The notes beneath the pieces were generated by a model. The model did not search any database. It saw only the letters and a program-made list of their open reading frames with translations, and was not told where the DNA came from. 64,000 nt of DNA from a virus, in the IMG/VR virus record IMGVR_UViG_3300017963_000201, positions 32,001 to 96,000 of that record; one strand, written 5' to 3'. Within the stretch, counting starts at the first letter, position 1, and each line of letters starts with the position of its first letter. The position numbers were made by a program, and so were the translations under genes. This document shows positions 11,468-48,622 of this stretch, in pieces.

Positions 11468-12052
11468 ATGCGTATTGTCATCCCAGAAGAGAAAAATTAT
11501 ATTAAGCGTCTCAGGGAAAACTCAGTTAGAGGGGAATTAGAATTTGAAAACTTGTGTAAAATCTACGAAGAAATTTACGATCATAAGTATTGGGCATATT
11601 GGAATTATCCTAGTTTTAGAAGTTTCTGCATGGCAACCAATAAAGATTACGGTCTATACTCCTTTGGTATGGTCCGATTATATCTTCGTTGTGCTAAATT
11701 ATTGCCTGCCTATTACTTTCGGATTTATTCTAGAGGGCAATGCCTAGCCATTGCGCATGGAGCAACCGAAGATATTCGAGATGCTATTTCACAAGCCACA
11801 GATCAATTGCGGGTAAAAGATCTAACCCGCCTTGCCCTAAATCTAAATAAAGAGTATAAGAATGGAAATAAAAAATCGGAATTACCGCTTCGAATCCCAA
11901 GTCAGGGGGAATTCGAAGTTAATCTATTGACCAAAAAACCTAGATCATATCAAGGTTATTTATCATTAAATAATCAAAACTATATCGATATTACGTTCAA
12001 TCCACGAGCTAAAAAAGCATTTTATATAATACGTAGCTGTAATATTGATTAG
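11468..12052 (+). CDS. Hypothetical protein
   Basis: RBS AAGGAG; own upstream TTGACT. Confidence 0.55.
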   Translation: MRIVIPEEKNYIKRLRENSVRGELEFENLCKIYEEIYDHKYWAYWNYPSFRSFCMATNKDYGLYSFGMVRLYLRCAKLLPAYYFRIYSRGQCLAIAHGATEDIRDAISQATDQLRVKDLTRLALNLNKEYKNGNKKSELPLRIPSQGEFEVNLLTKKPRSYQGYLSLNNQNYIDITFNPRAKKAFYIIRSCNID

Positions 12053-36881: not shown

Positions 36882-37397
36882 CTATTTAGTAAACAACGGT
36901 TCTTTAGCTTTTGGAGGACAAGAGCACATAAGTTTCCAACATTCGGGTGCCTTGAACGCTAGTCCATAATTTTTGTACATGCCCAAGACATAAAGATCGT
37001 CATCGAACGAAACTAAAGATTCTGATGCATAGGGTACGTATGGAAGGATTTTTTGATTAAGAATTCGCTCTTTATGCTCTGTTCCTGTACTTAGCTCACC
37101 ATTGGGGCGCATATAAAGATTAATGTTCTCTTTATGAAGCGGAAAATAATTAGAAATCCATAGCAAGGTTACACTTCTAAGTCTTTCGTTCCGTCCAGTT
37201 ACAAAATGGACAGAGCTAGACTCTACGATTAATTTTGCCACACATTCTACAGAGTATGGCATGGGTGTGTCTCTTAGAACTAAGGTTGGTGATGTAAAGG
37301 TTTTCCAATCTTCTATAGTAGGTTCGTCCTTGTCTACTATGTTTTGTCTGTGAGAAAAATCACTCAAAGTCCCATCAATATCCAGGATGGTAATCAT
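36882..37397 (-). CDS. HAD-family phosphatase (polynucleotide kinase 3'-phosphatase-like)
   Basis: DIDGT, VTGR, LYMRP, FDDD. Confidence 0.8.
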   Translation of the reverse strand: MITILDIDGTLSDFSHRQNIVDKDEPTIEDWKTFTSPTLVLRDTPMPYSVECVAKLIVESSSVHFVTGRNERLRSVTLLWISNYFPLHKENINLYMRPNGELSTGTEHKERILNQKILPYVPYASESLVSFDDDLYVLGMYKNYGLAFKAPECWKLMCSCPPKAKEPLFTK

Positions 37398-37478
37398 TAA
37401 TAAACTTTCTTTTAATGCCCGTCACAGATTTACATGTATTATACCCATACTACAACAAAAAGTTTACCTGAGGTACGT

Positions 37479-38792
37479 ATGCCATACAACCCAAACGAGC
37501 TAAAAAACAAGATAATTGGTAAGGAAATAAACATTGGTATTGTGGGTTTAGGATATGTAGGTTTACCCTTAGCTATTCAGTTTTGTAAGAAGGGATTCAA
37601 TGTTATAGGATTTGACATTGATCCGTATAAAGTGTATTGCCTTAAGCACGGAACAAGTTACCTAAGCCACGTTGATCCAGAATCTTTTATTGAGTACATC
37701 CAAGCAAAAAAGTTTTTTCCTACTAGTTTCTTCAAAAATTTAACATTTTGCACTGTAACAATAGTATGTGTACCAACCCCCCTTACAGCAAATAGAGAAC
37801 CAGACTTAAGTTACATAAAAGCAACCATGGAAAGTATTCAGCCCTATGTTGGAAAATACGTAAACATCGTATCTCTAGAAAGCACGACGTATCCAGGAAC
37901 AACCAACGAGGTAGTAAGACCAATCTTAGAAAAAGAAGCTGCTGTTGGTAAGGATTTTGCTCTGATTTACTCTCCGGAACGTGAGGACCCAGGAAACCCT
38001 TTTTTTAGTATAGGTAATACTCCCAAAGTTGTAGGAGGCCAAACAGAAACATGCGGATTACTTGGTAAGGTACTGTATCAACAAATCGTAGACACTGTAA
38101 TATTAGTAAGTTCTACCAATACCGCAGAGATGGTCAAAATCTTAGAAAATACCTATCGAGCAGTCAATATATCTTTTGTAAATGAACTAAAGATGCTGTG
38201 CCATAAAATGGGCATAGATATTTTTGAAGTCATACGAGCAGCACAAACCAAACCTTTTGGCTTTCAAGCCTTTCGTCCTAGTTGCGGTTTTGGTGGGCAT
38301 TGCATAAAGGAAGATCCGTTTTATCTCACTTGGAAAGCACGGCAATATGACATTAACACAAAGTTTATAGAACTGGCTGGAGAAATAAATTCGTATATGC
38401 CAGAATATGTTTCCAATCGAATTCAAGATGCATTAAATTCTAGAGAAAAAAGTATTAAAAACTCGGTTATATTAATTATTGGGGTTGCGTATAAGCCAAA
38501 TGTCAACGACACCCGAGAAAGCCCTGCTTTTAGAATTATAGATCTGCTACATAAAAAAGGTGGGCATATACTATACCATGATCCTTTTATTCCTATTCTG
38601 CCAGAAACTAGGAAATACAATTTCAAACTTAAATCGCAAGATTTATCTAAGGATTTATTAAATATTGTGGACTGTGTTGTTATAGTAACGGCGCATAAAG
38701 ATATCGATTACAAATTTATCCAAAAATATGCCAAGATCATCGTTGATACCTGCGACACGTTTAGGGATAAAACAAACGTCTACTGCGCATAA
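37479..38792 (+). CDS. Nucleotide-sugar (UDP-GlcNAc/ManNAc-type) dehydrogenase
   Basis: GLGYVG, CVPTP, ESTTYPGTT, SPERED, GGHCI, AYKPNVNDTRESP. Confidence 0.93.
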   Translation: MPYNPNELKNKIIGKEINIGIVGLGYVGLPLAIQFCKKGFNVIGFDIDPYKVYCLKHGTSYLSHVDPESFIEYIQAKKFFPTSFFKNLTFCTVTIVCVPTPLTANREPDLSYIKATMESIQPYVGKYVNIVSLESTTYPGTTNEVVRPILEKEAAVGKDFALIYSPEREDPGNPFFSIGNTPKVVGGQTETCGLLGKVLYQQIVDTVILVSSTNTAEMVKILENTYRAVNISFVNELKMLCHKMGIDIFEVIRAAQTKPFGFQAFRPSCGFGGHCIKEDPFYLTWKARQYDINTKFIELAGEINSYMPEYVSNRIQDALNSREKSIKNSVILIIGVAYKPNVNDTRESPAFRIIDLLHKKGGHILYHDPFIPILPETRKYNFKLKSQDLSKDLLNIVDCVVIVTAHKDIDYKFIQKYAKIIVDTCDTFRDKTNVYCA

Positions 38793-38803
38793 AGGAGACG
38801 GTC

Positions 38804-39196
38804 ATGGAGGACGCAAAAATAATCAATAGTAGTGTTTTTAACTTTGGGCTCATTGGGATTGGTACTACTATCGTGGGTTCCCTAGTTGGTCTTTTGCTCT
38901 TGAACTACTCTTTAGGCTTGCGTATCCAAGACGAGCGTGCTAAACAGGATGAGTTACGTACCCAACTAGCAGATCAACAAAATACAATTTACGACCTAAG
39001 AAGAGCATTGGATAGGACAGAGGGGCGGTTGGGAGTTTACGAGGATTTTTTAATCGGAACACAAGTACATGCACTCAAACGTATGGTGCGGGACTTTTTA
39101 AGGAGCAACAAAGTTAAATCTACAGAAGTAACCTTGCTAGAGTTTGAGCAGTGGGCAAACCAAAAGGTATCTTATCCTGTAGGTATCGGAGGGTAG
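38804..39196 (+). CDS. Membrane-anchored coiled-coil protein
   Basis: One TM segment then heptad pattern. Confidence 0.55.
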   Translation: MEDAKIINSSVFNFGLIGIGTTIVGSLVGLLLLNYSLGLRIQDERAKQDELRTQLADQQNTIYDLRRALDRTEGRLGVYEDFLIGTQVHALKRMVRDFLRSNKVKSTEVTLLEFEQWANQKVSYPVGIGG

Positions 39197-39197
39197 C

Positions 39198-40385
39198 TTG
39201 GATTTCTCTATAGCAGATCACACTAGTTATTTAGTGGTTGCAGGATCGCATGCCTATAAGACACACCACCAAGATAGCGACTATGATGTTAGAGGTTGGG
39301 GAATACCCCCACTAAAATACCAATTTGCTTTTGACAAACATTTTGATCAATACGATGCAAAGCATACCTATCGAAATTACCCTTTTAGGGTAGATCTAAA
39401 TTCGTATATTAAATCTCATAACCTTAGGCCACTTCCAGAAGACGAAATGATAGATCAAACTGTTTACTCAATTTCTAAATTTTTCAAGCTGGCATCAGAT
39501 TGCAACCCTAATGTGATTGAGTTATTATTTGTTGACGATACAGATATATTAATCTGTGATCCCTATGCCACAGAAGTTAAAAAACACCGAGACTTATTTT
39601 TGTCTGCCCGCGCCAAATTTAGCTATTTAGGGTATGCAATCAGTCAACTGAAGCGTATTAAAACTCATCGGAGGTGGTTACTTAATCCACCTAAAGAAAA
39701 ACCCACTAGGACTAAATACGAGCTTCCAGAGCAATCTTTAATACCACCAGAGCAACGAGGTGCTGCAGAAGCCTTGGTAAAAGCAAAAGTACGGGAATGG
39801 ACCTTACAAGATGCCGATCTTTTTTCAAAGACTGAATTAAATATGGTCCATGTAAATCACCTATCAGAGTTTGTAGGGTATCTAATAGACCGTAAAACGG
39901 ATATACAAGAAATGCTTACAGCAGCTCGCATAGCTGCAATGCACTACTACGGACTGTCAAAAAATATGATCGAAGTTTTACAAGCTGAAAAATCATATAA
40001 GGCGGCATTAATAGAATGGAACCAATACAAGAATTGGAAAGAAACCAGAAATCCTTATAGAGCTGGATTAGAAAGGGACTATGGCTATGATTTAAAACAC
40101 GCCATGCACCTTGTTAGACTAATTTTTCAAGGCGAAGAATTACTCACTAGAGGAAAAATTACAGTAAGGTGTAATCACATTCCAGAGATCGAAGAAGTAA
40201 AAGAAGGTAAGTGGAGCTACGAAAAATTAATTTATTTTGTAGAGACTAAAGAAAAAGAATTTAATATTTTGTATAATGACAAGAAGTACGTCGTACCAAA
40301 GAAGCCGAATATAAAGGCTCTGAGTAAGCTAAATACGGATCTATTAAAGAGGTATTACCATGAGAAAATTTTTCTACGACACTGA
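39198..40385 (+). CDS. Pol-beta superfamily nucleotidyltransferase (RlaP/YcgL-like)
   Basis: GSHAY..DSDYDVRG, NPNVIELLF, YDLKHAMHLVRL. Confidence 0.85.
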   Translation: MDFSIADHTSYLVVAGSHAYKTHHQDSDYDVRGWGIPPLKYQFAFDKHFDQYDAKHTYRNYPFRVDLNSYIKSHNLRPLPEDEMIDQTVYSISKFFKLASDCNPNVIELLFVDDTDILICDPYATEVKKHRDLFLSARAKFSYLGYAISQLKRIKTHRRWLLNPPKEKPTRTKYELPEQSLIPPEQRGAAEALVKAKVREWTLQDADLFSKTELNMVHVNHLSEFVGYLIDRKTDIQEMLTAARIAAMHYYGLSKNMIEVLQAEKSYKAALIEWNQYKNWKETRNPYRAGLERDYGYDLKHAMHLVRLIFQGEELLTRGKITVRCNHIPEIEEVKEGKWSYEKLIYFVETKEKEFNILYNDKKYVVPKKPNIKALSKLNTDLLKRYYHEKIFLRH

Positions 40386-40866
40386 ATTCATAGAATACCC
40401 TAGCCACATTGATCTAATATCCATAGCGCTTGTATCTGAGTCCGGGGGGTTTTTTTACGCAGTCAATAATGAGTGTGACTTTAGTAAAGCAAATCCGTGG
40501 GTCAAGGAAAACATAATTGACCATCTAGAGCCCCAGTCAGATCCTTCCTGGATGACAAGGGAAAAAATAAAAAGTGATCTGTTAAACTACTTAAAACCTG
40601 AGATAGAAGATCCTGTTCAGCTCTGGGGATATTACGCAGATTACGATCATGTAGCTTTGTGTTGGCTATTTGGGCCTATGATTAATTTACCAAAAGGTAT
40701 GCCCATGTATACCTTGGACCTAAAGCAATTGGCTTATCACCTTGGTAATCCACCATTACCGACACAGGATCTCCCAGAGCACAACGCAAAGCACGATGCC
40801 CTATGGAATCGAAGAGTTTATTTTTACCTAAAGCAGATAGCCAAACAAAAAAATATTGAGGTTTGA
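40360..40866 (+). CDS. DEDDh 3'-5' exoribonuclease (Rv2179c/RNase AS-like)
   Basis: FYDTEF, YADYDHV, DLKQ, HNAKHDA. Confidence 0.85.
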   Translation: MRKFFYDTEFIEYPSHIDLISIALVSESGGFFYAVNNECDFSKANPWVKENIIDHLEPQSDPSWMTREKIKSDLLNYLKPEIEDPVQLWGYYADYDHVALCWLFGPMINLPKGMPMYTLDLKQLAYHLGNPPLPTQDLPEHNAKHDALWNRRVYFYLKQIAKQKNIEV

Positions 40867-42444: not shown

Positions 42445-43053
42445 ATGTTTATTGTCATCGAGGGTATTGACGGATCTGGAACGACTACACAAACAAAGCT
42501 ATTAGCAAGTTACATCAATAAGCAAAAAGGTCAAGTAGCGATTGAAACAAAAGAGCCCACAGAACAAACTGTTGGAAGATTAATCAGAGAGATCCTAAGA
42601 AACAAATGGATTAAGATTAATGAATTGAGTATGGCCTTATTGTTTGCTGCAGATCGACTGGATCATATGGAACGTATGGAGCAACATTTGGATAGAGGAC
42701 TGCATATCGTATGTGATCGCTACCTCCATTCTTCTTTATGCTATCAGGGAACCCAGGAAACTTTAGACTTTGTTGCAGCAATAAACGCAAAAGCAAAAAT
42801 ACCTGACGTGACGTATATTTTAGAAATTGATCCAAAGATAGCCCATGAAAGAATCCTCTCTCGGGGCGAACAAGAACAACGATATGATGCTATAGAAAAG
42901 CAAAAACAAATAGCAGACAACTACGATAAAGTATTAAGATCTATGTTTGATGCTAATAAGTTAGTATATCTTCAAGGGGACCGCCCAAAAGATCAGGTAC
43001 ACAAGGACATAGTAAATGATTTTAATAAAAGGATAGGTAATGGTAAAGTTTAG
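42445..43053 (+). CDS. tmk: Thymidylate kinase
   Basis: IEGIDGSGTTTQ P-loop, KEP, LLFAADR, CDRY..SSLCYQG. Confidence 0.92.
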   Translation: MFIVIEGIDGSGTTTQTKLLASYINKQKGQVAIETKEPTEQTVGRLIREILRNKWIKINELSMALLFAADRLDHMERMEQHLDRGLHIVCDRYLHSSLCYQGTQETLDFVAAINAKAKIPDVTYILEIDPKIAHERILSRGEQEQRYDAIEKQKQIADNYDKVLRSMFDANKLVYLQGDRPKDQVHKDIVNDFNKRIGNGKV

Positions 43054-43372
43054 AAAACCGATACCAACAATTGAAAAAGAATTCAATATAGAAGAGCATG
43101 TACCCCCAAGGGAAGAGATACCCAAAGAGTTTAAGACATTTATAGGCCAAAGAAACAAATGGGTAGTTGCCGCTGAGGATTGGTTCTATTTTGGGCTATC
43201 CAAGGACAGTCTTAAACCTAAAGATGGTATTGATCTAAATGCCGCACTTATACATCTACAACGATTACTCCACTCTTTTAGTCTAGAGCACAACCACAAA
43301 ATAGCTGCGGCATCTTACCTAATGTCTTTGTGGTTTCAGGAATATACCCCGAGCAAAAGAGATATACCCTAG
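43040..43372 (+). CDS. Hypothetical phage protein
   Basis: ORF in operon. Confidence 0.55.
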   Translation: MVKFRKPIPTIEKEFNIEEHVPPREEIPKEFKTFIGQRNKWVVAAEDWFYFGLSKDSLKPKDGIDLNAALIHLQRLLHSFSLEHNHKIAAASYLMSLWFQEYTPSKRDIP

Positions 43373-43463
43373 TGCGGGGTACTGTGTCAAGCCAATTCTT
43401 AATGTTTAGGAAAGTGCCTAGAACCTAAATCTTTTTCCTTGAAAAAATTAATCTTTTTATTGC

Positions 43464-43491
43464 TTGACGTACCCAAAAACTTTTGTATTAT
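43464..43491 (+). promoter_or_regulatory. sigma70 promoter of the ncRNA/tRNA operon
   Basis: TTGACG-N16-TATTAT with AT-rich upstream element. Confidence 0.65.
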
Positions 43492-43519
43492 ACACTAAGC
43501 AGCACAAAGAATGATAAGG

Positions 43520-43532
43520 GATCTTTGACAAT
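43520..43532 (+). promoter_or_regulatory. boxA antitermination element (rRNA-operon type)
   Basis: GATCTTTGACAAT ~25 nt after predicted TSS. Confidence 0.6.
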
Positions 43533-43543
43533 CGGTTGTGGTT

Positions 43544-43651
43544 TTCCCTCTGGGATCTTTAACTCTTTTCGCTTGGACGTTTTAGTCATGCCAGAGGGAA
43601 TTAATGTGCCCTTGTTCCGGTAACGCTAGGCACGGGACCCTAACAAGGGTA
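43544..43651 (+). ncRNA. Two stem/large-loop RNA elements
   Basis: TTCCCTCTGG/CCAGAGGGAA (43544-43600); TGCCCTTGTT/AACAAGGGTA (43607-43651). Confidence 0.5.
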
Positions 43652-43657
43652 GCCTTT

Positions 43658-43794
43658 GGGCAAATGCTGTATGGCACTCCATAGCTTATATAAGTTCGAA
43701 TCTTATTATACCCTTCGGGGTATATAGCCTAACTGGTAAGGCAGCTTCTTATAAAGAAGCCAAGCGAAAATGTGCCACACAATACTTGTTGCCC
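43658..43794 (+). ncRNA. Y RNA 1 (YrlA-like) with permuted tRNA opened in the variable arm
   Basis: GGGCAA-ATG..CTTG-TTGCCC terminal helix; order T arm, acceptor closed by cUUCGg, D arm, anticodon arm (loop TTATAAA). Confidence 0.8.
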
Positions 43795-43809
43795 TTTATT
43801 AGTCAGATT

Positions 43810-43883
43810 TCTTGCTGAATGCAGTTTATGATTACATTTTTGTGTAAAAAAATCAGATCACAAACTAATCCTTGTCAGCAAGA
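43810..43883 (+). ncRNA. Y RNA 2 (minimal, no tRNA module)
   Basis: TCTTGCTGA-ATGCAG..GATTACATT..CCTTG-TCAGCAAGA; same conserved motifs as the other Y RNAs. Confidence 0.7.
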
Positions 43884-43892
43884 TTAATCCTT

Positions 43893-44123
43893 GGGGATCT
43901 AAATGCGCGTCAGGATTACATTGCACTTAACTGTTAATTAAGAGGTTGTTGGTTCGAGTCCAACCTGGCCCATCTCCGCTAGTGGGGGTAGGAATCCATG
44001 TCATAGGTTTACAGTCCCTCCCGTATGCTTGTGGCTTCCGCTCTTTTCTTACCCTCACTTTTATGGGCCAGTAGCTCAATTGGTAGAGATAATATGGTCT
44101 TGGCAAATACTTGTTAGATTCCC
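43893..44123 (+). ncRNA. Y RNA 3 containing permuted tRNA-Asn(GTT) with ~90-nt insert in acceptor loop
   Basis: GGGGATCTAA/TTAGATTCCC helix; anticodon arm CTTAA-CTGTTAA-TTAAG, T arm, CTGGCCC..GGGCCAG, D arm. Confidence 0.8.
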
Positions 44124-44135
44124 TTTTTATTATAA

Positions 44136-44363
44136 AATAACTGCATAAGAACGTACACTAACTTAATAAAAATTTTCGATGCACGCCTGCTCTACTCTTA
44201 TGCAGTTATTATTTTTTGGGGCATTCAGTTTTGTTTAAATATTTGGGGCAATAAAAATATTTCCTGAGTGCCTCTCTTAATTGTACTAAGAAATCGACGT
44301 TGACCATCCTTACCCCGCATCCCTACCTCAGCTTTCTAGACTTCCCTGGCAACGTCGATTTCT
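44136..44363 (+). ncRNA. Three stem/large-loop RNA elements
   Basis: Stems 44136-44210 (15 bp), 44218-44274 (11 bp), 44289-44363 (14 bp) separated by U-rich spacers. Confidence 0.55.
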
Positions 44364-44369
44364 AATTTT

Positions 44370-44464
44370 GGAGCGTCCGAAGCGTGACTGGATCATTTAA
44401 CATCCAAAAAATCAGCACTAGTTTTTACTTTGGAGTCTAGTATGCCTTCTGTGGATAACGTCTT
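44370..44464 (+). ncRNA. Possible further Y-like RNA
   Basis: GTCCGAAG 5' motif; GCGTGACTGGA/TCTAGTATGC stem; 3' motif deviates. Confidence 0.35.
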
Positions 44465-44530
44465 TAATTTGATTATGGCTTTATTTGCTTCCTGGATTAT
44501 AGTAGTATTTATAGCATCGCACTTTGGCAA

Positions 44531-44603
44531 GGGGCACTAGCCTAACGGATAAGGCATCGGCCTTCTAAGCCGACCAATCGGGGTTCGATTCCTCGGTGTC
44601 CCG
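44531..44603 (+). tRNA. tRNA-Arg(TCT)
   Basis: Full cloverleaf, loop CTTCTAA, no encoded CCA. Confidence 0.92.
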
Positions 44604-44614
44604 TAGGAGATGCT

Positions 44615-44800
44615 ATGAATGATAAGGAAATCGTTGCGGAGCTAAGAAGAATTGGATCTGATGTTTTGAATAAACTTTGGAAAGCTCACCATGATTATCA
44701 TTTCAAAACCATAGATGCCCAAGAGTTTATCAAAATATTTAAACAAGCTGTAGCTAAGTTTAATGAAGCAAATACTATCATAGAAAGAGAAAGACATTAG
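44615..44800 (+). CDS. Small hypothetical protein between tRNAs
   Basis: RBS AGGAG, 61 aa. Confidence 0.55.
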   Translation: MNDKEIVAELRRIGSDVLNKLWKAHHDYHFKTIDAQEFIKIFKQAVAKFNEANTIIERERH

Positions 44801-44883
44801 GCTGCTGTGACGGAATGGTATACGTATCAGACTTAAAATCTGATGCCCAGATGGGATTGAGGGTTCGAGTCCCCCCAGCAGCA
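44801..44883 (+). tRNA. tRNA-Leu(TAA)
   Basis: Cloverleaf with long variable arm, loop CTTAAAA. Confidence 0.92.
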
Positions 44884-44886
44884 TAC

Positions 44887-44970
44887 GGATCGGTGCCCGA
44901 GCTGGTCAAAGGGGACGGGCTGTAAACCCGTTGTCATGTGGCTACGATGGTTCGAATCCATCCCGATCCA
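44887..44970 (+). tRNA. tRNA-Tyr(GTA)
   Basis: Cloverleaf with long variable arm, loop CTGTAAA. Confidence 0.92.
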
Positions 44971-44980
44971 TATATAAGTC

Positions 44981-45119
44981 TTACTCCGAATGCAGTAAGA
45001 GATTACATTGCTCTTCGAAAGCCGTGGTTGCGGGTTCAAGTCCCGCTCCCCCGATTTCGGGGGATAGCTCAATTGGTAGAGCACGTAAAATAATCTCTTG
45101 CAACCCTTGTCGGAGTAAA
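44981..45119 (+). ncRNA. Y RNA 4 (YrlA-like) containing permuted tRNA-Arg(TCG)
   Basis: TTACTCCGA-ATG..CTTG-TCGGAGTAA helix; GCT-CTTCGAA-AGC, T arm, TCCCCCG-ATTT-CGGGGGA, D arm. Confidence 0.85.
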
Positions 45120-45133
45120 TTTTTGGAGGTTTT

Positions 45134-45718
45134 ATGAATACGCATATTGAGTACGAACGAAAGTTTTTGATTGGGAAGAGCGATTGGATGCACTATGTCT
45201 CTAAGACAGTTTACATAGTTCAAGGCTACCTGTCTTTTGATATCCCTAGTGTTCGTATTCGAAAACAATGCTCCGTAAATCAATGTGATAATTTATTTTG
45301 CAATCAATGCACCTTTGGGGATAAATTTACAATTCAACTATCGTACAATATAACAATTAAAGGTACTAAAAACAAAGAAGACCTAGCATGTAGGGATGAA
45401 TTTAACATACCTGTTAGCCCCACTATTGGAGATCATATTCTTCGCCAAGTAAAAAAAGATTTTATAGTTAAACAAAGACACTTTGTCAAATACGATGATA
45501 TCATTTGGACCATTGACGAGTTTAAGAGAGATAACCAAGATCTTATAGTAGCAGAGGTTGAGAATAGTAATAACTTACCAAAAGATGAATTTAATAAATC
45601 GGTAAATACTCATATGCCAACATGGGTACTAGAAGAAGTAACACAAGATCCAGATTATTTAAACGTAAATTTAGCTAGGCATCCCTATAACACATGGGAC
45701 TTAAACAAAAACAAATAA
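45134..45718 (+). CDS. CYTH (triphosphate tunnel) domain protein
   Basis: EYERKFL, QGYL, VRIR, WTIDEF, VAEVE, EVTQDPDYLN. Confidence 0.88.
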   Translation: MNTHIEYERKFLIGKSDWMHYVSKTVYIVQGYLSFDIPSVRIRKQCSVNQCDNLFCNQCTFGDKFTIQLSYNITIKGTKNKEDLACRDEFNIPVSPTIGDHILRQVKKDFIVKQRHFVKYDDIIWTIDEFKRDNQDLIVAEVENSNNLPKDEFNKSVNTHMPTWVLEEVTQDPDYLNVNLARHPYNTWDLNKNK

Positions 45719-45909
45719 CCGCAACCGATAAATTTATTAATGAGCTACAAAAATTAATAGGATCTAGAATTACTCAAATCGATCTTTGGTACAAAGATGG
45801 TATTATAAGAATGGAGTTCAGAGATAGAGAAGGCATCCAGGTAGACATTAAAAAAGGGCTAATAGAAATTTTTAAGGAAGATAAGTTAATACAAATAAAA
45901 ATATTTTAG
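45694..45909 (+). CDS. Hypothetical protein
   Basis: Operonic ORF. Confidence 0.45.
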   Translation: MGLKQKQITATDKFINELQKLIGSRITQIDLWYKDGIIRMEFRDREGIQVDIKKGLIEIFKEDKLIQIKIF

Positions 45910-45971
45910 GCAGCGGTAGTGTACTAATCTTTCCCAAAACAGTGTCAAATGTGTCCATGCCTATCGCTGCC
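45909..45971 (+). ncRNA. Stem/large-loop element directly upstream of rsr
   Basis: GGCAGCGGTAG/CTATCGCTGCC 11-bp stem. Confidence 0.45.
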
Positions 45972-45999
45972 ATTGTCCTCACAGAAAGGGGAATGCATT

Positions 46000-47553
46000 A
46001 TGAATAAACAAGTCTTCAAAACGACTAGAGGGAAAATACCCGAAAGGGCTAATACCTACAATAAGGCAGGAGGTAAAGCTTATACGAGATCCCCAGAGGC
46101 ATCTTTAGTACAGATGGCTTTGACAGGAACTTTCTATAATACGTTCTATTGCTCCGGTAGAGCACAACTGAACGAAACGATAGATTTGTGCAAAAAGGTA
46201 GATCCTAGATTCGTAGCACAGACAGCTATCTACGCAAGAAGCAAAGGGCTCATGAAAGATATGCCTATGTTTCTTTGTGCTCATTTAGCAAAAGAAGATC
46301 CTAAACTTTTGGAGCTGATCTTTCCACAGGTAATGAGCAATGGGATAGTCCTCAAGAAGTTTGTACACATGCTTAGGTCTGGGGTTGTCGGGCGTAAAAG
46401 TATGGGGACCACGATCAAAAGAGCTGTTACTAATTGGATCCAGAATCGATCTTACCATGGGTTGTTCCGAGACGCTATCGGTGGGGATGTCACGATTGCA
46501 GACATAATAAAAATGGTTCACCCCAGACCTCAAGATAAATCAAGAGAAGCGTTCTATGCTTATTTGATCGGTAAGAAATATAATCATGAATCACTGCCTA
46601 CTATTGTAAAAGAATATGAGGCTTTCAAAAAAGGAGAAACCAAAGAAGTACCCAATGTAGAGTTTCGTTACTTAACTTCTCTGAAACTGGGTAAAACCGA
46701 ATGGACCCAAATTGCCTTGAACGCCCCTTGGCATATGTGTCGAATGAACTTGAATACCTTTGATCGCCATGGGGTATTCAAGGATAAAAAAGTGACAAAA
46801 AGAATTGCCGACAAAATCAGGGACCGCGAATCAATAAGAAAGGTTGGCGTATTCCCCTACCAACTTTTGGCAGCATACAAAGCAGAGAAGGATTTGCCAC
46901 GAGAGATCATTGAGTCTCTGCACGATGCAATGGAAATCGCAACCAAGAATGTGCCCACTGTTGAAGGGAAAGTTGTATTGTGCCCGGACGTATCAGGTTC
47001 TATGCAAAGCTATAGCGTTACAGGGTCAAAAAATTCTAGTATAAAGCCGTTAGACGTTGCCGCTTTAGTTACAGCCGTGGTATTGAGAAATAACCCAGAC
47101 GCTTTGGTTTTACCCTTCGATACAGGATTACACAATATAAGACTCGAACCTAGAGATACGGTTATGACTAATGCAAACAAACTAGGGAGAATTTATGGTG
47201 GAGGTACCTCAGTAAGTGTACCCATGCGGTATCTTATAGACAAAAGGATCAAAGCCGATGTCATTATCTACATAAGCGACAACGAGTCTTGGGCAGATCC
47301 TTATCACCGAAGTACTGCTTTAGAAGGGTACTGGCAACAATTCAAATCAAAGAATAGAAACGCTAAACTTATTTGTATCGACACTTATGTAGAGAAAAAC
47401 GTACAGGCTAAAGATGCTCCAGATGTATTAAACATTGGTGGTTTTTCAGACAACGTTTTTACGCTAATAAATCTTTTTCTTAATGGAAGCATTGGTACTG
47501 AGGGTATCGTAAGCGAAGTCAAAAAAATTAACATGGGAGAGCGTGATGCCTAA
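46000..47553 (+). CDS. rsr: Ro60/TROVE RNA-binding protein (Rsr)
   Basis: NKAGGKAY, TGTFYNTFY, IKMVHPRP, RMNLNTF, VFPYQLL, vWA MIDAS DVSGSM, GGT, SDNESW, IGGFSD. Confidence 0.93.
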   Translation: MNKQVFKTTRGKIPERANTYNKAGGKAYTRSPEASLVQMALTGTFYNTFYCSGRAQLNETIDLCKKVDPRFVAQTAIYARSKGLMKDMPMFLCAHLAKEDPKLLELIFPQVMSNGIVLKKFVHMLRSGVVGRKSMGTTIKRAVTNWIQNRSYHGLFRDAIGGDVTIADIIKMVHPRPQDKSREAFYAYLIGKKYNHESLPTIVKEYEAFKKGETKEVPNVEFRYLTSLKLGKTEWTQIALNAPWHMCRMNLNTFDRHGVFKDKKVTKRIADKIRDRESIRKVGVFPYQLLAAYKAEKDLPREIIESLHDAMEIATKNVPTVEGKVVLCPDVSGSMQSYSVTGSKNSSIKPLDVAALVTAVVLRNNPDALVLPFDTGLHNIRLEPRDTVMTNANKLGRIYGGGTSVSVPMRYLIDKRIKADVIIYISDNESWADPYHRSTALEGYWQQFKSKNRNAKLICIDTYVEKNVQAKDAPDVLNIGGFSDNVFTLINLFLNGSIGTEGIVSEVKKINMGERDA

Positions 47554-48304
47554 ACTTCATGAATTATTGGCAGTAGAGTCAGATCTAAAAAATCAATTTG
47601 ATAAGATCTTGCAAGAGACTATTGTTACATTCACCAAAAAGCAAGATCATTTTATGGGCGTGCATAAGACTCTAAAAATGATCGATGATAATCGGGCTCA
47701 TGAGGAAGAAGCAGCTACTCAGTACAAAGAGCTTGATGATACCGTAGACGGTAAATTGGACTATACTTGGAAGTATGTTTCCAAGTATATTAATGCGATT
47801 CATCAGAAGGAAAGTACAAACCAAACTGCTAAAGCAGACCTGGTTGTGGAAGGTAAGGTTTTAGCCAAAGACCTTCCTGCCACTTTACTTTTGAGCATGG
47901 AATCGAAGCTAAAGTTTCTTCGTGGGGTCTACGAAAAGATACCCACGCTACAACCCGGAGTAAAGTGGGTACCAGATCCACAAAGAGGTAAAGGTGTGTT
48001 TCAGGCAGAGCCTCCAGAGATGACCCATAAAACGGAGAAGGATCTGAAATCGAAAACTCTGTTTGAGGGTAATAAAGAACACCCACCACAAATTGAAAAG
48101 TGGATGGAATCTTTCGTTGTGGGTACCTACACAAAAGATATGTGGTCTGGTATGTATTCTCCAGCCAAGAAGTCTGAGGTTTTGGGTAGATTGGATACCC
48201 TGATTCAAAGCATCAAAAAAGCCCGTATGCGTGCAAACGATACAGAGGTTTTGAAGACCGAAGTTAATCTTGCGGGTGCGTTGTATAGCTATTTGACAAA
48301 GTGA
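47546..48304 (+). CDS. Uncharacterised helical protein coupled to rsr
   Basis: 253 aa, overlaps rsr stop; MPKLHELLAVE..LPATLLL..IPTL..HPPQ..ARMRAN. Confidence 0.75.
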   Translation: MPKLHELLAVESDLKNQFDKILQETIVTFTKKQDHFMGVHKTLKMIDDNRAHEEEAATQYKELDDTVDGKLDYTWKYVSKYINAIHQKESTNQTAKADLVVEGKVLAKDLPATLLLSMESKLKFLRGVYEKIPTLQPGVKWVPDPQRGKGVFQAEPPEMTHKTEKDLKSKTLFEGNKEHPPQIEKWMESFVVGTYTKDMWSGMYSPAKKSEVLGRLDTLIQSIKKARMRANDTEVLKTEVNLAGALYSYLTK

Positions 48305-48312
48305 ACAAGCTT

Positions 48313-48622
48313 TGGGCCAGCATCATAATTAGTCTCTGTTGTTAATTTTGTCCTTGGTGTTTTGCCCACAGCTTTAAACCTAAAGACGGATCAATTACTG
48401 GGCATGAATAAAAACCGCGTGCAGTGCGGGTTCAAGTCCCGTTCCGACCACCATATGGTCGGATAGTTCAATGGTAGAACGCATGCTTGATCAGATTCTA
48501 AATCGTGTGCCAGGAAAGATTCGGTACAGGGGGCTCGCTGGATGCCCTGTATCCCAGCACTTGGGTGGGATTGCTGTTGTGAAAAATGGTGATTTTTTAT
48601 AGCGGGCAATCCCATCTCTTTT
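48313..48622 (+). ncRNA. Structured RNA with permuted tRNA-like module, ending in a terminator
   Basis: T arm 48426-42, acceptor TCCGACC-ACCA-TAT-GGTCGGA, D arm 48466-80, closed by GCGTGC/GCATGC; several flanking stems; hairpin+U tract at 48564-48622. Confidence 0.75.

What the first reader, a model, noticed from the sequence alone, without database searches (positions are those of the whole stretch)
43893..44123. Y RNA 3 reassembles into a canonical tRNA-Asn(GTT)
Joining 44065-44088 (GGGCCAGTAGCTCAATTGGTAGAG) to 43924-43972 (CACTTAACTGTTAATTAAGAGGTTGTTGGTTCGAGTCCAACCTGGCCCA) gives a standard cloverleaf with a GCTC/GAGC D stem. The 3' half precedes the 5' half, separated by a ~90-nt insert with its own 14-bp stem. 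This resembles the permuted tRNA genes known in some algae and archaea, here embedded in a Y RNA.
Basis: seen in the sequence. Interest (0 to 1): 0.85.

Follow-up and report, generated by a model that had tools for sequence, protein, structure and literature searches.

The report
Phage Y RNA mimicking whole tRNA-Asn
This phage small RNA is a Ro60-binding "Y RNA" of the known YrlA type whose middle part is a complete, back-to-front copy of an asparagine tRNA with a 92-base hairpin plugged into its acceptor end; it is most likely a tRNA look-alike and not a gene for a working tRNA.

Summary
Joining 44065-44088 to 43924-43972 gives a perfect cloverleaf that ARAGORN calls tRNA-Asn(gtt), and a 92-nt structured insert closes the acceptor stem.

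The permuted order (T arm, acceptor hairpin, D arm) is the published architecture of YrlA-class Y RNAs. This RNA lies in a Y RNA/tRNA array 1.8 kb upstream of a phage Ro60 gene.

What goes beyond the papers I read:
- a full anticodon arm with loop CUGUUAA, followed by a canonical 5-nt variable loop;
- a 7-bp acceptor stem;
- the longest acceptor insert among about 90 relatives;
- a fourth D-stem pair that forms only across the junction.

At least 14 other Y RNAs from viral and metagenome contigs carry the same GUU loop on covarying stems. Six such loci also hold an ordinary tRNA-Asn gene. I found no bulge-helix-bulge motif and no RNA ligase. Processing into a mature tRNA is therefore unsupported. 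Opening of the acceptor end by RNase P, as in M. smegmatis YrlA, is plausible.

The scan has noted such tRNA-like Y RNAs before, on the neighbouring Y RNA 4 of this genome and in other genomes. Verdict: a new variant of a known kind.

The parts
43464..43491 (+). Promoter-like site (TTGACG, 16 nt, TATTAT) ahead of the Y RNA/tRNA array
   Evidence: 10 of 12 consensus matches. This is a consensus match only, and the number of sites in the region is not above the shuffles.
43893..43902 (+). 5' strand of the 10-bp terminal (Ro60-handle) stem
   Evidence: Pairs with 44114-44123 in the MFE and centroid folds.
43902..43906 (+). AAUGC motif of the internal loop, shared with the window's other Y RNAs and with YrlA
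   Evidence: Aligned to the AAUGC of the Rfam YrlA consensus in Y RNAs 2 and 4, and to the same motif of my model R1 in this RNA.
43909..43923 (+). 5' strand of the upper Y helix, containing GAUUACAU (43914-43921; its UUAC is the conserved YUAY of YrlA)
   Evidence: Pairs with 44090-44104. Chen 2014 describes the YUAY motif. The motif is invariant in alignment A2.
43924..43925 (+). C and A that act as tRNA positions 25 and 26; C43924 can close the D stem with G44074
   Evidence: Read from the sequence and from the cloverleaf of the join.
43926..43942 (+). Anticodon-like arm: 5-bp stem, 7-nt loop CUGUUAA, GUU at 43933-43935
   Evidence: The same loop on covarying stems occurs in 14 other Y RNAs.
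43943..43947 (+). Variable loop AGGUU (positions 44-48)
   Evidence: Relatives have (A/G)GGUC or ..GU here, and position 48 matches position 15 of the D loop.
43948..43964 (+). T arm
43965..43972 (+). Acceptor 3' strand CUGGCCC plus discriminator A; no encoded CCA (UCU follows)
43973..44064 (+). 92-nt insert closing the acceptor stem: 14-bp stem 43981-43994 / 44046-44059 with an inner hairpin
   Evidence: z = -4.5. Unique in the contig. Not matched by any phage record listed.
44065..44073 (+). Acceptor 5' strand GGGCCAG plus U8 A9
44074..44088 (+). D arm (GCUC, loop AAUUGGUA, GAG), identical to the D arm of Y RNA 4 except for the last stem base
44090..44104 (+). 3' strand of the upper Y helix
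44105..44113 (+). 3' side of the internal loop, with the CUUG(U) motif
   Evidence: Aligned to the UUGUC of YrlA and R1 in the paralogues. Read directly.
44114..44123 (+). 3' strand of the terminal stem
45949..47553 (+). Phage Ro60/Rsr gene, the expected protein partner (gene callers start it at 46000)
   Evidence: Pfam vWA_Ro60 4e-23 and TROVE 1.8e-4. About 50% identical to bacterial TROVE proteins. Gene call of 517 aa.

Best explanation
The RNA at 43893-44123 is a YrlA-class Y RNA of an uncultured phage. Its two ends pair into the handle that the phage's own Ro60 protein, encoded 1.8 kb downstream, is expected to bind. The rest is a complete tRNA-Asn look-alike wired in YrlA order: anticodon arm, variable loop, T arm, acceptor 3' strand, insert, acceptor 5' strand, D arm. 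The handle is attached at tRNA position 25/26. It belongs to an 'Asn-type' subgroup of Y RNAs found beside Ro60 genes in phages and metagenomes. I think the tRNA part is a mimic that presents the shape and anticodon loop of tRNA-Asn to some tRNA-recognising partner while tethered to Ro60. It is not a source of decoding tRNA. This copy has a 7-bp acceptor stem, a discriminator base and a spacer-like structured insert instead of a small loop. I therefore think it about even odds that host RNase P cuts before G44065, that the 3' side is trimmed to A43972 and that CCA is added. That would leave a two-piece Y RNA with an open acceptor end, as shown for M. smegmatis YrlA. Shown here: the sequence, the folds, family membership by covariance model, covariation of the anticodon-like hairpin, and the genomic context. 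Inferred: Ro60 binding, the mimicry function, the partner, and any processing.
For: Context: the Ro60 gene lies at 45949-47553. YrlA hits flank this RNA at 43657-43798 (E 8e-7) and 44983-45119 (E 1e-12).
Shared motifs: it carries AAUGC, GAUUACAU and CUUG(U), and its D arm is identical to that of Y RNA 4.
Family membership: a covariance model built only from eight Asn-type Y RNAs of other contigs hits 43896-44041 at 49.6 bits, E 3.6e-11.
Conserved hairpin: 15 RNAs carry loop CUGUUAA. Stem cells are 88% paired against 49% in shuffles, with 29 double changes and 0 of 500 shuffles reaching this.
Shared reassembly: eight of nine permuted joins (window plus eight others) are called tRNA-Asn by ARAGORN.
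Ro60 linkage of relatives: Ro60 homologues lie within the fetched loci of L124, L138, L082/L158 and L160, and of many other Y RNA loci.
Against a decoding role: ordinary tRNA-Asn genes co-occur in L146, L092, L130, L082, L129 and L133.
Long inserts recur: 21-50 nt in the four Y RNAs of the L130 array, 47 nt in L058.
Acceptor opening in the family: M. smegmatis YrlA, with a 7-bp acceptor stem, is cut by RNase P and gains CCA in vivo (PMC4201824). Thirteen of about 90 related Y RNAs encode N-CCA exactly at positions 73-76 of the closed acceptor loop, where about 1.5 would be expected.
Against: There are no expression, binding or processing data. Rfam's YrlA model does not hit this RNA even at E <= 10 on a 256-nt search. 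My own model aligns only the 5' two-thirds correctly and misplaces the D arm inside the insert. The 5' handle deviates from the published GNCGAAN0-1G motif (CUAAAUG here). No orthologue with the same insert was found. The only other copy (L125) is identical across 4.3 kb, so nothing shows selection on this particular RNA. U-1 and A-2 can pair with A73 and U74 and extend the acceptor to 9 bp, and no CCA is encoded. Both may reduce RNase P cleavage. The perfect cloverleaf and the D-stem pair that forms only across the junction are more than simple mimicry seems to need.
Confidence: 0.72

Rival explanations
1. True permuted tRNA gene. The handle (43893-43923 and 44089-44123) is excised, the ends are ligated at GAG|C to give a circle, and RNase P and RNase Z remove the insert. 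The result is a mature, decoding tRNA-Asn, as in Cyanidioschyzon and Thermofilum.
For: The join is a flawless cloverleaf with all invariant positions. The fourth D-stem pair exists only after the join. No other tRNA-Asn is found in the 145-kb contig. The best phage database matches of the anticodon-to-T-arm stretch are annotated tRNA-Asn genes, 81-87% over 40-45 nt. Wang et al. raised this possibility for YrlA in general.
Against: There is no bulge-helix-bulge at the junction, only a 4-bp plus 10-bp helix with a 1x1 mismatch. Wang et al. state that no splicing endonuclease has been reported in bacteria. No RtcB, Rnl1 or Rnl2 is found in the contig, and the one weak hit is an NAD-dependent DNA ligase. 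Relatives of the same subgroup have cis-closed D stems and 3-4-bp anticodon stems, and they sit beside normal tRNA-Asn genes. The handle carries the conserved Y RNA motifs. The contig is only 79% complete, so the lack of a tRNA-Asn gene is weak evidence.
Confidence: 0.06
2. Two-piece, chargeable tRNA-like Y RNA. After RNase P and RNase Z remove the insert and CCA is added, AsnRS charges the RNA while it stays bound to Ro60. The gene logic is that of permuted two-piece tmRNA.
For: The features listed for acceptor opening apply. In addition there is an intact GUU anticodon loop, the main AsnRS identity element in E. coli (my knowledge). Encoded NCCA is enriched in relatives. CCA addition to M. 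smegmatis YrlA has been shown.
Against: The discriminator is A, whereas E. coli tRNA-Asn uses G73 (my knowledge). The handle at position 25/26 may clash with the synthetase. No CCA is encoded, and no CCA-adding enzyme is found in the contig. There are no data on charging of any Y RNA.
Confidence: 0.12
3. Decaying relic of two tandem tRNA-Asn genes (the 3' two-thirds of one, the spacer, the 5' third of the next) with no function of its own.
For: The layout matches the dimeric-tRNA origin proposed for YrlA. The insert has the size of a tRNA spacer. No orthologue with the insert was found.
Against: The flanks pair over 24 bp and carry the family's AAUGC, GAUUACAU and CUUG motifs. The family model hits at E 3.6e-11. 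All tRNA invariants and every stem are intact. It is not more similar to co-resident tRNA-Asn genes than to others.
Confidence: 0.05
4. A contiguous D-armless tRNA at 43907-43972, as Rfam's tRNA model reports.
For: RF00005 scores 35.1 bits, above its cut-off of 29; GCGUCAG pairs 6 of 7 with CUGGCCC.
Against: The score comes from the anticodon, variable and T regions. ARAGORN does not call it. The alternative partner GGGCCAG pairs 7 of 7 and is followed by a perfect D arm. GUCAG is part of the Y helix. The chance of 6 of 7 pairs is about 1% per position (my arithmetic).
Confidence: 0.02

Closest known systems
YrlA (Y RNA-like A), Rfam RF02553; Chen et al. 2014 (PMC4201824); crystal structure in Wang et al. 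2018 (10.1101/312249)
   Same: Encoded beside Ro60. The ends pair into the handle. Conserved YUAY. T arm, then acceptor-like hairpin, then D arm. Levitt-pair covariation. Described in print as resembling a circularly permuted tRNA.
   Different: The papers say YrlA lacks an anticodon loop and read the hairpin upstream of T as a variable arm. Here that hairpin is a canonical anticodon arm followed by a 5-nt variable loop. The acceptor loop holds 92 nt. The Rfam model does not detect this RNA.
Mycobacterium smegmatis YrlA (Chen et al. 2014)
   Same: A 7-bp acceptor stem. That RNA is cut by RNase P in vitro and in vivo and receives CCA, and both halves stay with Rsr. This is the model for the processing I propose.
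   Different: Per the papers I read it has a small acceptor loop and no described anticodon arm. Processing of the phage RNA is untested.
Circularly permuted tRNA genes of Cyanidioschyzon merolae, some green algae and Thermofilum pendens (Soma 2007; Maruyama 2010; Chan 2011, as cited)
   Same: The 3' half precedes the 5' half. The acceptor ends are joined by an intervening sequence that RNase P and RNase Z could remove. The reassembled sequence is a canonical tRNA.
   Different: Those precursors carry a bulge-helix-bulge at the other junction and use the splicing endonuclease and a ligase. Here that junction is a Ro60 handle, with no such motif and no ligase found.
Two-piece tmRNA from permuted ssrA genes (alpha-proteobacteria, cyanobacteria; my knowledge)
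   Same: A bacterial precedent for a permuted tRNA-like gene whose intervening segment is removed to leave two base-paired pieces with a free CCA end.
   Different: No tag reading frame, no G3-U70, and ARAGORN finds no tmRNA. The partner is Ro60, not SmpB.
Neighbouring Y RNA 4 (44983-45119) and the Asn-type Y RNAs of loci L092, L134, L140, L146, L160 and others
   Same: The same handle motifs, the same GAUUACAU, and an anticodon-like hairpin with a CU...AA loop before the T arm.
   Different: They have 3-4-bp (rarely 5-6-bp) hairpin stems, D stems closed in cis and acceptor loops of 0-17 nt. Y RNA 3 has a 5-bp stem, a trans-closed D stem and a 92-nt insert.

Membership tests
YrlA-class Y RNA | Encoded next to a Ro60/Rsr gene | tested here: met
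   Ro60 (vWA_Ro60 and TROVE domains) at 45949-47553, same strand, 1.8 kb downstream.
YrlA-class Y RNA | 5' and 3' ends pair; GNCGAAN0-1G Ro-binding motif near the 5' end | tested here: inconclusive
   A 10-bp terminal stem and the AAUGC / CUUG internal loop are present. The motif reads CUAAAUG, against CCGAAUG in Y RNA 4, so it matches only in part.
YrlA-class Y RNA | Conserved T arm, acceptor-like hairpin and D arm in that order, with YUAY before the V region | tested here: met
   UUAC lies at 43916-43919.
YrlA-class Y RNA | Match to the family covariance model | tested here: inconclusive
   RF02553 gives no hit even at E <= 10, while its neighbours score 40.7 and 60.7 bits. My model R1, built from eight outside relatives, scores 49.6 bits, E 3.6e-11, but aligns only the part up to the acceptor 3' strand correctly.
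YrlA-class Y RNA | Bound by Ro60; modified by TruB and DusA | not testable with these tools
   Needs immunoprecipitation and modification mapping.
Circularly permuted tRNA gene (algal/archaeal type) | 3' half upstream of 5' half; the reassembled sequence is a canonical tRNA | tested here: met
   ARAGORN calls tRNA-Asn(gtt) and the MFE fold is the cloverleaf.
Circularly permuted tRNA gene (algal/archaeal type) | Bulge-helix-bulge motif at the junction formed by the precursor's ends | tested here: not met
   The junction is a continuous 4-bp plus 10-bp helix with a 1x1 mismatch.
Circularly permuted tRNA gene (algal/archaeal type) | Endonuclease and RNA ligase available to circularise | tested here: not met
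   No RtcB, Rnl1 or Rnl2 in the contig; the Rnl1 search had no positive control. The weak Rnl2 hit is an NAD-dependent DNA ligase. The contig is 79% complete and the host is unknown, so a host enzyme cannot be excluded.
Circularly permuted tRNA gene (algal/archaeal type) | Mature ligated tRNA is produced | not testable with these tools
   Needs RT-PCR across GAG|CAC.
tRNA (RF00005) | Contiguous cloverleaf above the family cut-off | tested here: inconclusive
   35.1 bits against a cut-off of 29 for 43907-43972, but with the D arm missing. ARAGORN makes no call.
Two-piece tmRNA | Permuted tRNA-like domain plus a tag reading frame | tested here: not met
   ARAGORN finds no tmRNA in the window.

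The most novel reading that the evidence does not exclude
Y RNA 3 is not a passive mimic. The 92-nt insert is cut out by RNase P and RNase Z, CCA is added, and the Ro60-tethered two-piece RNA then acts as a real tRNA-Asn substrate. It could be charged by AsnRS, or it could be a bait for a host anticodon nuclease or a modification enzyme that reads the U33-G34-U35 loop. On this reading phage Ro60 particles carry 'addressed' tRNA copies of chosen identity (Asn here, Arg in Y RNA 4; Trp, Lys, Ile, Thr, Pro elsewhere) as part of a tRNA-centred conflict with the host. The layout would also be a living example of the proposed birth of Y RNAs from tandem tRNA genes.
Probability: 0.15. Interest if true: 0.85.

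Novelty: new variant of a known kind. Interest (0 to 1): 0.58.

Why it matters
What the tRNA-like half of bacterial and phage Y RNAs does is still unknown, and published work treats it as a tRNA without an anticodon. This RNA and its Asn-type relatives keep a conserved, identity-bearing anticodon loop. A share of relatives also carry a built-in CCA. That points to partners that read tRNA identity or tRNA ends, and it gives direct tests: Ro60 pull-down, RNase P cleavage, CCA addition and charging. It also shows how annotation can go wrong. Rfam's tRNA model calls part of this RNA a tRNA, and ARAGORN calls a relative (L140) tRNA-Asn.

Tried and rejected
1. An exact scan of viral contigs for the T arm plus acceptor strand found only ordinary tRNA-Tyr genes.

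2. Looking for relatives of the phage: Ro60 gave one 43%-identical locus, and the ORF at 45134-45718 gave none. The protein search found three other contigs with the identical Ro60. The one that covers this RNA (L125) is identical from 42862 to 47219 apart from one SNP, so it gives no comparative signal.

3. The insert has no second copy in the contig and no listed match in phage records.

4. The Rfam YrlA model on the RNA alone gave no hit.

5. I asked whether each Asn-type Y RNA derives from the tRNA-Asn gene next to it. Identities are 53-79% with no preference for the co-resident gene, so this is rejected.

I used tblastn on the fetched loci instead.

7. A promoter or terminator inside the insert that would split the RNA into two transcripts: the scan found nothing there above background.

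8. My first two scripts for picking out Y RNAs were too strict or too loose and dropped the window's own RNA. They were replaced by the covariance-model alignment.

9. The 2020 Annual Review on bacterial Ro60 is not held, and Burroughs and Aravind 2016 did not turn up in my searches of the library. I therefore cannot exclude that they mention anticodon-like arms.

Full report
**Observation**

The window is part of a 145-kb uncultured phage contig. Joining 44065-44088 to 43924-43972 gives 73 nt. Their minimum-free-energy fold is the exact cloverleaf, and ARAGORN calls the join tRNA-Asn(gtt).

All usual invariants are present:
- U8, A14, G18 G19, A21;
- U33 and A37;
- the T-loop UUCGAGU, with G53 and C61;
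- an A15/U48 pair.

The 92 nt between the two acceptor strands fold into a 14-bp stem with an inner hairpin (z = -4.5). The whole RNA folds with a 10-bp terminal stem and a second helix of 14 pairs beneath the tRNA part (z = -3.6).

One refinement: as transcribed, the D stem has three pairs, because G44074 faces A44089. Only C43924, from the other side of the junction, completes it.

**What it is**

The RNA lies in an array that begins after a promoter-like site at 43464. The array contains, in order:
- a YrlA hit at 43657-43798;
- a short Y-like RNA;
- this RNA;
- tRNA-Arg, tRNA-Leu and tRNA-Tyr;
- a YrlA hit at 44983-45119.

Downstream on the same strand is a Ro60 gene (vWA_Ro60 and TROVE domains). 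Nearby genes include an RlaP nucleotidyltransferase, an Rv2179c-like 3'-5' exoribonuclease and a PNKP-type phosphatase.

This RNA shares several features with its neighbours: the AAUGC and CUUG(U) loop motifs, GAUUACAU, and a D arm identical to that of Y RNA 4.

Rfam's YrlA model does not find it, even alone at E <= 10. Rfam's tRNA model reports 43907-43972 at 35 bits with the D arm missing. I built a covariance model from eight Y RNAs of other contigs that have the same loop. It hits Y RNA 4 at 71 bits and this RNA at 49.6 bits, E 3.6e-11. Only the part up to the acceptor 3' strand is aligned correctly, because the model cannot bridge the insert.

**What is already known**

- Chen et al. 2014 showed that YrlA RNAs carry T, acceptor-like and D stem-loops in this order.
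- They noted that many also have a fourth stem-loop upstream of T, which they called V and read as a variable arm.
- They showed that the M. smegmatis YrlA, which has a 7-bp acceptor stem, is cut by RNase P and receives CCA in vivo.
- Wang et al. 2018 wrote that YrlA lacks an anticodon loop, resembles a circularly permuted tRNA with a closed acceptor stem, may have arisen from a dimeric tRNA, and might in some cases be processed towards a tRNA.

**What goes beyond that**

Pattern scans of viral and metagenome contigs gave at least 14 further Y RNAs with the loop CUGUUAA in the V position.
- The closing stems differ in sequence and covary. Cells are 88% paired against 49% in shuffles, with 29 double changes; 0 of 500 shuffles reach this, and slid controls give 30-38%.
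- The hairpin is followed by (A/G)GGUC or a similar 4-6-nt stretch whose last base matches position 15 of the D loop. That is a class I variable loop.
- So the hairpin sits where an anticodon arm sits, not where a variable arm sits.
- When permuted in the same way, eight of nine of these RNAs (window included) are called tRNA-Asn by ARAGORN.

In a model-based collection of 93 distinct Y RNA-like matches from 48 loci, 28 have a hairpin of at least 3 bp with a 7-nt YU...R loop, and 26 of these read CU...AA. The triplets are varied. This sample is biased towards GUU, because part of the loci were fetched with that loop. Ro60 homologues lie in many of these loci.

**How Y RNA 3 differs from its relatives**

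- Its anticodon stem has the full five pairs; most relatives have three or four.
- Its acceptor insert is 89-92 nt. Most relatives have 0-17 nt. The largest others are 50, 42, 29 and 21 nt in the L130 array and 47 nt in L058.
- Its D stem is completed only in trans.
- Its anticodon-to-T-arm stretch finds annotated phage tRNA-Asn genes as best database matches (81-87% over 40-45 nt, weak E-values).

**Is it a permuted tRNA gene?**

I think not.
- The junction where the ends would have to be cut and joined is a regular helix with one mismatch, not a bulge-helix-bulge.
- The contig has no RtcB, Rnl1, Rnl2 or CCA-adding enzyme. The one weak ligase hit is an NAD-dependent DNA ligase.
- Six loci with an Asn-type Y RNA also have a normal tRNA-Asn gene, so the subgroup is not there to supply that tRNA.

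Caveats: the contig is 79% complete, the host is unknown, and this phage contig shows no other tRNA-Asn.

**Is the acceptor end opened?**

The stem is 7 bp with a discriminator base, U at -1 and a self-contained hairpin in the insert, much like a spacer between tRNA genes. The M. smegmatis precedent applies.

There is also a family-level hint. In 13 of about 90 related Y RNAs, the closed acceptor loop begins with N-CCA exactly at positions 73-76 after a 7-bp stem. About 1.5 would be expected by chance, and other offsets show 0-4.

Y RNA 3 encodes no CCA, and its -1/-2 bases can pair with 73/74. I put opening at about even odds.

**Limits**

No orthologue with this insert was found. The only other copy (L125) is identical over 4.3 kb. 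Nothing here shows transcription, Ro60 binding or processing. The function of the tRNA-like module is unknown for every Y RNA.

**Earlier notes of this scan**

They describe the anticodon-like arm on the neighbouring Y RNA 4, a tRNA-mimic RNA after DUF7873 in this genome, and related designs in other genomes. I re-derived the anticodon-arm point independently for the GUU group. My model also hits the DUF7873-linked RNA at 48388-48513.

**Verdict**

This is a new variant of a known kind: a YrlA-class Y RNA with a complete tRNA-Asn module and a giant acceptor insert.

Noticed in passing
window 48388-48513 (+): A further permuted tRNA-like RNA just after the DUF7873 gene (47543-48304). My Y RNA model scores it 37.1 bits. 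Its closed acceptor loop reads ACCA-UAU after a 7-bp stem, so it has a built-in CCA.
   Followed up: partly
window 43812-43882 (+): A short Y-like RNA between Y RNA 2 and Y RNA 3. It has the handle only, with no clear tRNA module (R1 17.4 bits, E 0.003).
   Followed up: no
Loci L160, L138, L016, L097, L114, L040, L049, L134, L035, L042 (coordinates): Thirteen of about 90 Y RNA-like matches encode discriminator plus CCA at tRNA positions 73-76 inside the closed acceptor loop, roughly ten times the chance rate. This suggests that these loops are opened or are read as tRNA ends.
   Followed up: partly
L129:447-573(-), L133:2752-2855(+), L153:170-309(+): 'Half' Y RNAs: handle 5' strand, GUU hairpin, T arm and a conserved ..C(C/A)GAGGC-like tail. 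No D arm follows within 900 nt, and an apparent ORF starts soon after.
   Followed up: no
L130:8632-8923 and 11583-11929 (+): An array of four Y RNAs whose acceptor hairpins all carry 21-50-nt structured inserts. These are the nearest parallel to the 92-nt insert.
   Followed up: partly
L140:883-959 (-): ARAGORN calls a tRNA-Asn inside a Y RNA (821-955). Together with the Rfam tRNA hit at window 43907-43972, this shows that such Y RNAs can be annotated as tRNA genes.
   Followed up: no
window 36882-40866: RNA-repair-type genes without a ligase: a PNKP-type HAD phosphatase (36882-37397, - strand), an RlaP/PHROG 388 nucleotidyltransferase (39198-40385) and an Rv2179c-like 3'-5' exoribonuclease (40360-40866).
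   Followed up: partly
window 42862-47219 compared with L125: A second assembly of the phage is identical across this 4.3-kb block (1 SNP). It differs by 1-2% on both sides, including the 3' third of Ro60. This looks like recent recombination or a sweep of the Y RNA block.
   Followed up: no
window 45134-45718 (+): A 194-aa ORF between Y RNA 4 and Ro60 has no Pfam hit and matches only PHROG 6660 (unknown function). Earlier notes call it CYTH-like; I did not test that.
   Followed up: no
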